Part shown: piece by piece, positions 23,752 through 25,059 of the stretch
Layout of the letters: every line of letters begins with the position of its first letter
Position numbering within the stretch: position 1 is the stretch's first letter
DNA from: an uncultured bacterium
GTDB taxonomy: Bacteria; Bacillota_I; Bacilli_A; RF39; UBA660
NCBI GenBank assembly: GCA_949296705.1
Contig: CASFOW010000014.1
Coordinates: 956-64,955 of the forward strand
DNA: 64,000 nt
Direction of reading: 5' to 3'
Position numbers and translations under genes: made by a program
Notes under the pieces: generated by a model
What the model saw: only the letters and a program-made list of their open reading frames with translations
Told to the model about the DNA's origin: nothing
Databases searched by the model: none

Positions 23752-24240
23752 ATGAATAAAATAATTGGAATCATGGGACCAAACAATGCTACTAAAGAAA
23801 ATCTAAAAGATGCTTACGAAATTGGTAAATATGTAGCAAATAAAGGATATACAGTATTAACCGGTGGATTAAATATTGGAATACAGAATGAGGGATTAAA
23901 AGGAGCTAAATCATCTAATGGTCTAACTATTGGAATTATGCCATTTAATGAACCAGAAAAATTTTCTGAATACGTTGATATTCCTATAATAACTAATATG
24001 AGAAGTGGTAGAAACTATATAAATGTTCTATCTAGCAATTTAGTAATTGCTTGTGGGATTGATGTTGGAACAGTATCAGAAATATCGCTGTCATTAGTAA
24101 AAACTAATAATAAAAAAGTTATTTTAGTTGGAGCATTGAATGAGGCAAACGAGCTATTTATAAAATTAAGAAGGGACAATGTTTTTGTTGCGAAAGATTA
24201 CAATGAGTGTATTAATATATTAAATACCATTGAATTTTAG
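23752..24240 (+). CDS. SLOG/TIGR00725-family (LOG-like Rossmann) protein
   Basis: IGIMGPNNAT…VLTGGLNIGIQNEG…GIMP…RNYINVLSSNLVIACG matches the TIGR00725/LOG-like fold pattern. Confidence 0.6.
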   Translation: MNKIIGIMGPNNATKENLKDAYEIGKYVANKGYTVLTGGLNIGIQNEGLKGAKSSNGLTIGIMPFNEPEKFSEYVDIPIITNMRSGRNYINVLSSNLVIACGIDVGTVSEISLSLVKTNNKKVILVGALNEANELFIKLRRDNVFVAKDYNECINILNTIEF

Positions 24241-24309
24241 TATTTATTCAAACTCTAAATAAGTCATTATAAAAAGGTTTTAAATAAATTTAAATAGAGG
24301 AGACTATAT

Positions 24310-25059
24310 ATGGATATAAATAAAATTAAAAATGAATTAATTAGCCAAAAAGAATCTAAATTTAAAGGCAATATTTATCATTATTCACAAGTTAATTTTG
24401 CTTATAATTCCAATAAAATTGAAGGCAGCAGATTAACTAGTGAACAGACTGAAGCAATATTTGATACATCTTCATTTATTCCTAAAAGTGATGATTTAAT
24501 AAAATTAGATGATTTAACGGAATCTAAAAATCATTTTAAATTATTTGATTATATGTTAGATAATGTTGATGAATTATTGACTAAAGAGATGATCATTGAA
24601 ATGAATAAAATATTAAAGAGAAATACTAGTGATGAAGAAAATCCTAGATATAACGTTGGTGGATTTAAAGTGGTTCCTAATATAATAGGTGTAGTCAATG
24701 TTATTAATACTACGGCACCAGAAGATGTAGAAGAGAAAATCGAAGAATTATTAAATGAATATAATTCTAAAACTAATATTACTTTAGAGGATATTGTTGA
24801 TTTTCATTTTAGATTTGAAAGAATACACCCATTTGGGGATGGAAATGGTCGTGTTGGTAGAATAATAATGTTTAAGGAATGTTTGAGAAATAACATTATG
24901 CCATTTATTGTATTAGATGATGATAAACCTTATTATATGAGAGGATTAAAAGAATATGAAAATGATAAAATGTTTTTAATTGATACTATTAGGCACGAAC
25001 AAGATTTATATGAAAAAATATGTGAAGAATTATTAGATTTTGAAATAGAAAACAATTAA
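24310..25059 (+). CDS. Fic-family protein (class II, with an N-terminal inhibitory SxxxEG motif)
   Basis: Canonical Fic motif HPFGDGNGRVGR, with N-terminal SNKIEG (S/TxxxE[G/N]). Confidence 0.8.
   Translation: MDINKIKNELISQKESKFKGNIYHYSQVNFAYNSNKIEGSRLTSEQTEAIFDTSSFIPKSDDLIKLDDLTESKNHFKLFDYMLDNVDELLTKEMIIEMNKILKRNTSDEENPRYNVGGFKVVPNIIGVVNVINTTAPEDVEEKIEELLNEYNSKTNITLEDIVDFHFRFERIHPFGDGNGRVGRIIMFKECLRNNIMPFIVLDDDKPYYMRGLKEYENDKMFLIDTIRHEQDLYEKICEELLDFEIENN

What the first reader, a model, noticed from the sequence alone, without database searches (positions are those of the whole stretch)
23752..25059. Adjacent SLOG (TIGR00725/LOG-like) and class II Fic genes on the mobile island: a candidate two-gene nucleotide-centred conflict module
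The 162-aa protein has the Rossmann-like LOG/SLOG motifs (GIMGP…TGGLNIG…GIMP). SLOG domains are established as nucleotide-processing or nucleotide-sensing components in predicted conflict systems. The next gene encodes a Fic protein with an intact HPFGDGNGRVGR active site and an N-terminal SNKIEG inhibitory helix (class II, autoinhibited AMPylator). The first gene has its own extended -10 promoter, a terminator follows the second, and both sit inside the horizontally acquired island. Such a Fic/SLOG pairing does not correspond to any named system I recognise.
Basis: partly seen in the sequence, partly recalled or inferred. Interest (0 to 1): 0.55.

Follow-up and report, generated by a model that had tools for sequence, protein, structure and literature searches.

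The report
Swappable SLOG gene beside mobile Fic
The two genes are real and sit on a small mobile element that splits a spore-coat gene, but comparison with sister elements shows that the Fic toxin-like enzyme is the constant cargo and the SLOG gene an exchangeable passenger, so they are probably not a dedicated two-gene system.

Summary
Both ORFs exist as described. The first is a 162-aa SLOG protein (Pfam LDcluster4), about 50% identical to solved Moco-carrier proteins. The second is a 249-aa class II Fic with SNKIEG and HPFGDGNGRVGR, closest to C. difficile CdFic and matching PADLOC's single-gene defence candidate PDC-S04.

They lie on a 4,158-bp large-serine-recombinase (LSR) element (window 23634..27791). 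It splits a CotD-family gene. I found the uninterrupted allele, and the same element in a second host.

The two-gene module reading is only partly supported. Sister elements at the same site keep the leader/promoter, Fic, orf58 and recombinase. In place of SLOG they carry a Peptidase_MA_2 gene, a P-type ATPase, or nothing. Close SLOG relatives occur without Fic in at least six other contexts, and distant ones never have Fic nearby.

A SLOG–Fic association does recur. In five loci it arises because a recombinase-less cassette ending in SLOG is inserted into the Fic catalytic-motif DNA at a central GA. That is the known target preference of Tn5397's TndX recombinase. Only one other locus (Fic-SLOG-Nudix, 2-nt gap) looks like an operon.

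The pair is most likely co-transcribed but functionally independent cargo. Interest is modest.

The parts
23416..23640 (+). 5' fragment of a CotD-family gene (host), cut off by the element; reads ...VHQVPQV*
   Evidence: Joined to 27790..27921 it gives a 115-aa protein. Intact homologues are 98% identical over 100% of its length (P0241); more distant relatives carry PF11122 Spore_coat_CotD. The empty-site DNA of L079 aligns across the junction.
23631..23633 (.). attL crossover core (ACA)
   Evidence: attB GTTCCACATGTTTGTCC (L079), attL GTTCCACA|AGTGTGATAA and attR GGCAAGGACA|TGTTTGTCC.
23634..27791 (+). 4,158-bp integrative element mobilised by a large serine recombinase; mosaic backbone with two variable cargo slots
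   Evidence: About 100% identical to L001 exactly between these borders, while the flanks are 40-80% identical. Low GC. Backbone shared with L069 apart from the two slots.
23698..23729 (+). Element-borne promoter: TTGATA, 20 nt, TGgTATAAT (extended -10 at 23721-23729)
   Evidence: Read. The leader is homologous to the one upstream of Peptidase_MA_2 in L069 (z 18.5) and to the one directly upstream of Fic in L059 (z 8.3). Function is inferred.
23752..24240 (+). SLOG / LDcluster4 protein, Moco-carrier-like (cargo slot 1, exchangeable)
   Evidence: PF18306 E 1.1e-38. PDB 6y01 E 1.6e-37 and 2iz5 E 4.2e-32. DNA homology to other SLOG loci is confined to 23751-24242.
24310..25059 (+). Class II Fic protein (CdFic-like; PADLOC PDC-S04), the constant cargo of the element family
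   Evidence: PADLOC PDC-S04 E 1.6e-100 over the full length. Homologues 85-89% identical sit in sister elements.
25066..25114 (+). Hairpin with U-tract, probable terminator of the SLOG-Fic transcript
   Evidence: 10-bp stem, -21.2 kcal/mol, z -3.37. A second, weaker site at 25158-25170.
25516..25692 (+). orf58, a small conserved ORF overlapping the recombinase start; function unknown (possible directionality factor, a guess)
   Evidence: Conserved together with the recombinase in L001, L011 and L069-L078. No family hit.
25686..27254 (+). Large serine recombinase (Resolvase + Recombinase + Zn-ribbon domains)
   Evidence: Pfam. 83% DNA identity to the L069 recombinase.
27280..27768 (+). P-loop kinase-like protein (cargo slot 2, exchangeable)
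   Evidence: AAA_18 and weak 'DNA topology modulation protein' hits. Replaced by MazE-MazF in L069 and absent in L011.
27789..27791 (.). attR crossover core (ACA)
27790..27921 (+). 3' fragment of the CotD-family gene (host): HVCPMRTKVINHH...CCNFR*

Best explanation
A 4.16-kb integrative element, moved by its own large serine recombinase, sits inside a CotD-family spore-coat gene between ffh and rpoZ.

From a conserved extended -10 promoter at its left end it most likely transcribes SLOG and then Fic as one mRNA, ended by a hairpin (inferred from sequence).

Fic is the element family's constant cargo. It is a CdFic-like class II Fic enzyme whose ATP site is blocked by Glu38 of its own N-terminal SNKIEG helix. 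By analogy with SoFic and other class II Fic proteins, it is expected to AMPylate a cellular target when inhibition is relieved, giving growth arrest that serves element maintenance or abortive phage defence (inferred, not shown). It works on its own.

SLOG is an exchangeable passenger that was placed between the element's promoter and the Fic ORF. It is a Rossmann-type protein of the LDcluster4 / Moco-carrier clade that binds, and perhaps cleaves, a phosphorylated nucleotide-like ligand (R87, T107 and E110 are kept). It travels on many kinds of mobile elements and acts independently of Fic.
For: Element and borders: empty site L079; the intact 115-aa CotD-like protein; attB/attL/attR; the same element in a second host.

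Mosaic backbone: L069-L078 share the leader (70%), Fic (85%), orf58 plus recombinase (83%) and the att flank, but carry Peptidase_MA_2 instead of SLOG and MazEF instead of the kinase. L059 has the homologous leader directly on an 85% identical Fic. L061-L068 and L080-L086 have recombinase, P-type ATPase, Fic, attR.

Fic stands alone elsewhere: more than 7,797 homologues at E<=1e-20. It occurs on 3.5-kb H. pylori plasmids, phages and satellites. PADLOC files it as single-gene candidate PDC-S04.

SLOG without Fic: L007-10, L012, L043-46, L049-58, L017. Homology to the window is limited to the ORF. In L011 the SLOG segment is 100% identical while Fic is 91-95% identical, which points to recombination at the gene boundary.

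Class II features. No terminator-like site between the genes, and a hairpin after Fic.
Against: An independent locus, L048, has intact Fic (51% identical), then SLOG (73% identical) after a 2-nt gap with the ribosome-binding site inside Fic, then Nudix. Adjacency in both gene orders is usually read as a functional link.

The gene in slot 1 is always the first gene of the Fic transcript, so alternative slot-1 genes could be alternative Fic partners rather than unrelated cargo.

A class II Fic (SoFic) has since been shown to need a small neighbouring antitoxin (PMC12249575), so 'stand-alone' is not safe for every class II Fic.

No activity of either protein was tested.
Confidence: 0.62

Rival explanations
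1. SLOG and Fic form a functional two-gene module. SLOG would sense or process a nucleotide and so control Fic. For example, it could relieve or reinforce Glu38 autoinhibition, or act on the AMP adduct or its by-products as an antidote.
For: Same strand, 69-nt gap, one conserved promoter, no terminator-like site in between. An independent Fic-SLOG-Nudix operon-like locus with a 2-nt gap. LOG-type Arg/Thr/Glu positions are kept in SLOG. There is precedent for a small partner of a class II Fic: SoFic and AS1.
Against: Fic homologues 85-89% identical, in the same element backbone, lack SLOG. SLOG relatives mostly lack Fic. No Fic lies near distant homologues. Most SLOG-Fic adjacencies are insertions that destroy Fic. 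The element carries no signal-generating enzyme.
Confidence: 0.17
2. The adjacency is a footprint of integration preference. SLOG travels on elements whose serine recombinase targets Fic-domain DNA (TndX/Tn5397 type), so SLOG ends up beside Fic sequences without any functional relation. On this view the window's arrangement also descends from such an event.
For: In L014, L016, L031 and L047 a Metallophos, YhcG-or-RhuM, SLOG cassette interrupts distinct Fic genes inside HPFxDGNGR; L015 shows the same right junction on a fifth Fic. The cassette has 21-nt inverted arms around a central GA. TndX of Tn5397 is known to target Fic-encoding DNA with an invariable central GA (PMC4430133). SLOG lies next to a serine recombinase in L012, L044 and L045.
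Against: In the window Fic is intact and SLOG lies upstream of its start codon. The SLOG-Fic spacer shows no similarity to the cassette end (z about 0). The window's own recombinase uses a different site (ACA core in cotD). This reading does not explain L048.
Confidence: 0.12
3. The 162-aa protein is a true molybdenum-cofactor carrier protein, a metabolic accessory gene unrelated to conflict.
For: The best solved relatives are the Rippkaea and Chlamydomonas Moco carrier proteins (E 1.6e-37 and 4.2e-32, about 50% identity).
Against: Only 2 of the 4 anion-site residues of RoMCP are kept: R42 maps to L40 and S67 to F65, while R89 and T109 are conserved (alignment with PMC7470044). Those authors expect true carriers in oxygen-evolving organisms. 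This clade sits on mobile elements of gut Bacilli, and equally close relatives occur in CPR bacteria and DPANN archaea.
Confidence: 0.04

Closest known systems
CdFic of Clostridioides difficile (PDB 4x2c/4x2d/4x2e), a class II Fic AMP-transferase
   Same: Same size and architecture. The SNKIEG inhibitory motif and the HPFxDGNGRxGR motif align (E 3.4e-33).
   Different: Roughly 40% identity by eye from the alignment. Here the gene is cargo of a serine-recombinase element. Target and activity are untested.
SoFic and PADLOC PDC-S04 (single-gene Fic defence or defence candidates)
   Same: Full-length match to the PDC-S04 model (E 1.6e-100) and a partial match to the SoFic model (E 9e-21). An autoinhibited Fic proposed to act by abortive infection (PMC12249575).
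   Different: Fails the NCBIfam SoFic equivalog (31 bits against a cut-off of 550) and lacks SoFic's C-terminal domain. PDC-S04 is only a candidate. No AS1-like small gene was identified downstream.
Moco carrier proteins RoMCP / CrMCP (PDB 6y01, 2iz5); Pfam LDcluster4 of the SLOG superfamily
   Same: About 50% identity over the whole length, and the same Pfam family.
   Different: Two of the four ligand-phosphate contacts are replaced. The context is mobile elements in anaerobic gut bacteria.
Thoeris-type SLOG sensor systems (ThsA SLOG plus effector, ThsB TIR)
   Same: A SLOG-superfamily domain next to a potentially toxic effector on a mobile or defence locus.
   Different: A different SLOG clade: the only PADLOC hit is a weak PsyrA match, with no ThsA hit. 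There is no signal-generating enzyme, SLOG is not fused to the effector, and the pairing is not conserved.
Intervening elements in sporulation genes excised by large serine recombinases (skin in sigK, SPbeta in spsM); from my own knowledge
   Same: A serine-recombinase element splits a gene of a mother-cell-expressed family (CotD). Precise excision would restore the ORF.
   Different: Only 4.2 kb. Developmental excision is untested. The target gene is new to me.
Tn5397 / TndX targeting of Fic-domain DNA (PMC4430133)
   Same: In related loci the SLOG-ending cassettes sit in Fic-motif DNA with a central GA and inverted arms.
   Different: The cassettes are 2.55 kb, carry no recombinase or conjugation genes, and hold defence-island-type genes. 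The window's own element uses another site.

Membership tests
Fic/Fido, class II (autoinhibited) | Catalytic motif HxFx(D/E)GNGRxxR | tested here: met
   H184-PFGDGNGRVGR-195; PF02661 56.9 bits against a cut-off of 24.
Fic/Fido, class II (autoinhibited) | Inhibitory motif (S/T)xxxE(G/N) on a helix N-terminal to the core in the same polypeptide | tested here: met
   S34-NKI-E38-G39 aligns with SNKIEG of CdFic 4x2e. The helix itself was not modelled.
Fic/Fido, class II (autoinhibited) | AMP-transferase activity repressed by the Glu | not testable with these tools
   Needs the E38G mutant and an AMPylation or toxicity assay.
SoFic defence system | Meets the curated SoFic model | tested here: not met
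   NF046030 31.1 bits against a cut-off of 550; the PADLOC SoFic model matches only residues 31-197.
PADLOC PDC-S04 (single-gene defence candidate) | Full-length match to the family model | tested here: met
   PDLC04836 E 1.6e-100, residues 3-241 on model positions 2-237 of 244. The family is a candidate; no phenotype is known to me.
SLOG superfamily, LDcluster4 (PF18306) | Match above Pfam's gathering score | tested here: met
   132.7 bits against 26.3, residues 3-149.
TIGR00725 family | Match above NCBIfam's cut-off | tested here: not met
   86.1 bits against 106.9.
LOG cytokinin-riboside 5'-monophosphate phosphoribohydrolase | Curated model, and the PGGxGTxxE motif | tested here: not met
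   NF058542 25.5 bits against 300; TIGR00730 31 bits against 96. The motif reads CGIDVGTVSE: GT..E is kept, PGG is not.
Moco carrier protein | The four anion/phosphate-site residues of RoMCP (R42, S67, R89, T109) | tested here: not met
   They map to L40, F65, R87 and T107, so 2 of 4 are kept (alignment; PMC7470044).
Moco carrier protein | Binds Moco and donates it to an apo-enzyme | not testable with these tools
   Biochemical assay needed.
Two-gene SLOG-effector conflict system | Partner genes co-occur across genomes | tested here: not met
   SLOG is present in 1 of 4 context types of Fic homologues at >=85% identity. Intact Fic is present in 2 of about 15 context types of close SLOG relatives.
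Two-gene SLOG-effector conflict system | A nucleotide-signal generator (TIR, cyclase) in the locus | tested here: not met
   The element encodes only SLOG, Fic, orf58, the recombinase and a P-loop kinase-like protein.
Large-serine-recombinase integrative element | Recombinase with Resolvase, Recombinase and Zn-ribbon domains, plus defined attL/attR and an empty attB | tested here: met
Sporulation-gene intervening element | Excision in the mother cell restores the gene | not testable with these tools
   Only the in-frame restoration on precise excision is shown.
TndX/Tn5397-type Fic-targeting element (related loci only) | Insertion in Fic-domain DNA with a central GA | tested here: met
   L014, L016, L031, L047 and L015; the criterion comes from PMC4430133.
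TndX/Tn5397-type Fic-targeting element (related loci only) | Element encodes a TndX-like recombinase | tested here: not met
   No serine recombinase in the cassettes or in the fetched flanks, which reach about 5-8 kb where the contig allows. No TndX sequence was available for comparison.

The most novel reading that the evidence does not exclude
SLOG of this clade is a dedicated modulator or antagonist of class II Fic enzymes. It would be co-transcribed with Fic here and translationally coupled to Fic in L048. It would bind or cleave an adenine-nucleotide species linked to AMPylation, for example removing adenine from AMP adducts or sensing a nucleotide alarm that releases Glu38 inhibition. 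That would make Fic-SLOG a new two-component defence or addiction module. The SLOG cassettes that knock out resident Fic genes would then be the antagonistic side of the same relationship.
Probability: 0.15. Interest if true: 0.6.

Novelty: new member of a known kind. Interest (0 to 1): 0.33.

Why it matters
If the main reading holds, the locus is a clean, fully delimited example of a small serine-recombinase element with an empty site in hand. The element has plug-in cargo slots and has moved between species of uncultured gut Bacilli. It shows that a stand-alone class II Fic (PADLOC PDC-S04) is its core cargo.

It also cautions against reading operon-like adjacency on mosaic elements as a system. 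Here most SLOG-Fic adjacency across genomes comes from recombinase target choice, not from function.

The minority reading, a real Fic-SLOG partnership, would add a new regulator class for Fic enzymes. It can be tested cheaply.

Tried and rejected
1. Housekeeping LOG or TIGR00725 enzyme: rejected, because all curated models fall below their cut-offs and the context is mobile.

2. True Moco carrier: unlikely, since 2 of 4 site residues are lost.

3. The window's SLOG 3' flank as a decayed TndX-type cassette end: it looked plausible by eye, but local alignment against shuffles gives z about 0. Rejected.

4. Structured RNA, intron or ribozyme in the element or in the L014 cassette: no Rfam match at E<=1.

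5. The cassette as an ordinary transposon with a target duplication: the flanking 'duplication' is imperfect. It is better explained by 21-nt inverted arms around a shared GA, which is serine-recombinase att architecture.

6. Phage origin of SLOG: no relative in IMG/VR or in GenBank phages.

7. A conserved partner among distant SLOG relatives: none, apart from a YgjV-like membrane protein in L018, L019 and L007.

8. The JGI metagenome scan returned only distant relatives, so it added no close contexts.

9. Pfam did not recognise the rejoined CotD-like protein itself. The CotD label rests on the Pfam tags of its homologues.

10. The primary paper on Tn5397 target choice (PMC1483006) is not held, so the Tn5397 end sequences could not be compared with the cassette ends.

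Full report
**1. What is there**

The window holds two same-strand ORFs, 23752..24240 (162 aa) and 24310..25059 (249 aa), separated by 69 nt.

The first ORF matches Pfam PF18306, 'SLOG cluster4', at E 1.1e-38. It falls below NCBI's cut-offs for TIGR00725 (86.1 vs 106.9), TIGR00730 and the LOG phosphoribohydrolase model. Its closest solved relatives are the Moco carrier proteins of Rippkaea (6y01, E 1.6e-37) and Chlamydomonas (2iz5, E 4.2e-32), at about 50% identity over the full length.

The second ORF is a Fic protein (PF02661). Its S34-NKIE38G and HPFGDGNGRVGR motifs align with those of C. difficile CdFic (4x2e, E 3.4e-33). That makes it a class II Fic by sequence.

PADLOC places it, over its full length, in PDC-S04, a single-gene defence candidate (E 1.6e-100). 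It also matches part of the SoFic model.

An extended -10 box (TGgTATAAT, 23721-23729) precedes SLOG. No terminator-like site lies between the genes. A 10-bp hairpin with a U-tract follows Fic.

**2. The island, delimited**

The small ORF 23416..23640 and the stretch 27790..27921 are two halves of one gene. Joined, they give a 115-aa Cys/His-rich protein. Uninterrupted homologues exist at 98% identity and 100% coverage (P0241), and more distant relatives carry Pfam Spore_coat_CotD.

The contig encoding P0241 (L079) gives the empty site. The three sites read attB GTTCCACATGTTTGTCC, attL GTTCCACA|AGTGTGATAA and attR GGCAAGGACA|TGTTTGTCC, with a shared ACA core.

The element therefore spans 23634..27791, which is 4,158 bp. 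It carries SLOG, Fic, orf58, a 522-aa large serine recombinase and a P-loop kinase-like gene.

In L001 the same element is about 100% identical exactly between these borders, while the flanks are only 40-80% identical. The host CotD half there is 32% identical. So the element has moved between species into the same gene. GC drops to 0.23-0.25 inside it.

**3. Is the pair conserved? The Fic side**

The Fic family is very large: more than 7,797 hits at E<=1e-20, and more than 120 clusters at >=85% identity. I found four context types among homologues at >=85% identity.

- The window type, with SLOG (L001-6, L011).
- L069-L078: cotD 5' half, then [Peptidase_MA_2, Fic, orf57, recombinase, MazE, MazF], then cotD 3' half and rpoZ.
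- L061-68 and L080-86: recombinase, P-type ATPase, Fic, attR, cotD 3' half.
- L059, a viral contig: the homologous leader sits directly on Fic.

BLASTN shows the mosaic. The window and L069 share the leader (70%), Fic (85%), orf58 plus recombinase (83%) and the right att flank (75%). They do not share 23730-24298 (SLOG) or 27243-27766 (the kinase-like gene).

The leader homology is significant: z 18.5 against L069 and z 8.3 against L059.

In L011 the SLOG segment is 100% identical to the window, while Fic is only 91-95% identical. That points to recombination at the gene boundary.

Close Fic relatives also sit alone on 3.5-kb H. pylori plasmids, on phages and on satellites.

Fic plus the recombinase is therefore the constant core, and SLOG occupies a variable slot.

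**4. Is the pair conserved? The SLOG side**

About 70 clusters are 72-100% identical to the window protein. Identity then drops to 59% or less, in Clostridia, CPR bacteria and DPANN archaea.

Among the fetched loci that carry distant relatives (L018-L030 and L032-L042), none has a Fic gene or Fic motif in its fetched flanks. They have no conserved neighbour at all, except a YgjV-like membrane protein in two of them.

Close relatives occur in many settings.

- A conjugative element, between YgjV and a 141-aa ORF (L007-10).
- Beside DUF4406 and/or a serine recombinase (L012, L043-45).
- After Bro-N, KilA-N or DUF5131 genes (L049-58).
- As a pseudogene (L017).
- In one locus, as intact Fic, then SLOG after a 2-nt gap with its ribosome-binding site inside Fic, then Nudix, between infB and lepA (L048).

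SLOG has no relatives in IMG/VR or in GenBank phages.

**5. The unexpected association**

In L014, L016, L031 and L047, distinct Fic genes are split inside the catalytic motif. These genes are 80%, 43% and 69% identical to the window Fic, or are of a different subfamily with a C-terminal wHTH domain. L015, whose left part is cut off by the contig end, shows the same right junction on a fifth Fic, of the EGNGRSTR type.

The insert is a roughly 2.55-kb cassette: metallophosphoesterase, then YhcG/DUF1016 or RhuM, then SLOG. SLOG is always the last gene, and the Fic 3' part resumes right after it.

Alignment with intact Fic genes places the junction in the Asp codon of HPFxDGNGR.

The cassette ends are 21-nt inverted arms around a shared GA. 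In L047 they read TTGACTAAGGATGCATTCTCA-GA and GA-TGAGAATGAATCCTTAGTCAA. No recombinase lies in the cassettes or in the fetched flanks.

This matches a known behaviour. TndX, the large serine recombinase of Tn5397, directs integration into DNA encoding Fic domains, always with a central GA (PMC4430133).

Most SLOG-Fic adjacency across genomes is therefore a by-product of integration-site choice, and it destroys Fic.

YhcG and RhuM match PADLOC candidates PDC-S02 and PDC-S05, so the cassette carries defence-island-type genes.

The window's SLOG-Fic spacer shows no trace of the cassette end (z about 0).

**6. What the proteins probably do**

For Fic, all sequence criteria of class II are met. 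By analogy with CdFic and SoFic, it should be an ATP-dependent AMP-transferase held off by Glu38. This is inferred. A recent report that SoFic is toxic and is neutralised by a 47-aa downstream protein (PMC12249575) shows that class II Fic enzymes can have partners. I found no convincing small ORF after Fic here.

For SLOG, the family keeps R87, T107 and E110. These correspond to the phosphate-binding and LOG-type catalytic positions. However, RoMCP's R42 and S67 are replaced by L40 and F65, so a true Moco carrier is unlikely.

I take SLOG to be a binder or N-glycosidase of a phosphorylated nucleotide-like ligand, of unknown identity. It would be carried as free-standing cargo.

**7. Verdict**

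The 'two-gene conflict module' is only partly supported.

The genes are probably co-transcribed, but comparative evidence makes Fic a stand-alone core cargo and SLOG a swappable passenger (confidence about 0.6). A true partnership (about 0.15-0.2) is kept alive by L048 and by the fact that slot 1 always heads the Fic transcript.

Novelty: a new member of known kinds, namely a serine-recombinase element in a sporulation-type gene and a class II Fic cargo. Interest is modest.

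Noticed in passing
window 23416..23640 and 27790..27921; empty site L079:543-890: A CotD-family spore-coat gene is split by the 4.16-kb serine-recombinase element. Precise excision would restore a 115-aa ORF that exists intact (98% identity) in another sample. This resembles the skin/SPbeta type of intervening elements that are excised in the mother cell.
   Followed up: yes
L014:5912-8518, L016:3404-5998, L047:3930-6520, L031:3740-6040, L015:1-890, L013:~6900-8515: A recombinase-less 2.55-kb cassette (metallophosphoesterase, YhcG or RhuM, SLOG) is inserted in the HPFxDGNGR-coding DNA of distinct Fic genes. 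L014, L016, L031 and L047 show the split gene; L015 shows only the right junction, on a fifth Fic. The ends are 21-nt inverted arms around a central GA, the target signature reported for TndX of Tn5397. The Fic-motif DNA (CCATTT-N8-AAATGG) is itself dyad-symmetric.
   Followed up: partly
L069:2817-3497 (and L070-L078): In sister elements a 226-aa Peptidase_MA_2 protein occupies the SLOG slot, ending 4 nt before Fic, and MazE-MazF occupy the slot of the kinase-like gene. Whether the slot-1 genes are alternative Fic partners is open.
   Followed up: partly
window 20174..21928: A HerA-like ATPase (PADLOC HerA E 1.2e-97; 'anti-phage-associated HerA' far below NCBIfam's cut-off) lies between ylxM and ffh. 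The same position holds a 709-770-aa DUF87 protein in other species (L001, L069-L075), so it looks lineage-conserved rather than a recent island. No Sir2 or DUF4297 partner was seen next to it.
   Followed up: no
window 15582..17267: A second large serine recombinase (561 aa; Resolvase and Recombinase domains according to L002) lies about 6 kb upstream. It may mark another integrated element.
   Followed up: no
window 25080..25464: About 385 nt between Fic and orf58 have no counterpart in L069. The stretch holds only short ORFs, a 67-aa antisense ORF and a TTGACA-17-TAGCAT promoter-like site at 25325. No Rfam hit.
   Followed up: no
L018:8500-9003, L019:8166-8678, L007:7459-7980: A YgjV-family membrane protein (PF10688) lies next to SLOG both in the close clade (a conjugative element) and in 56%-identical Clostridia homologues. 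It is the only neighbour that recurs across SLOG clades, and it may hint at a transported ligand.
   Followed up: no
L059:3996-6111: The viral contig that carries the SLOG-less Fic also encodes an Avd-like four-helix-bundle protein and a 340-aa reverse transcriptase, next to a 621-aa protein whose C-terminus looks (by eye) like a lectin-fold variable region. This looks like a diversity-generating retroelement.
   Followed up: no
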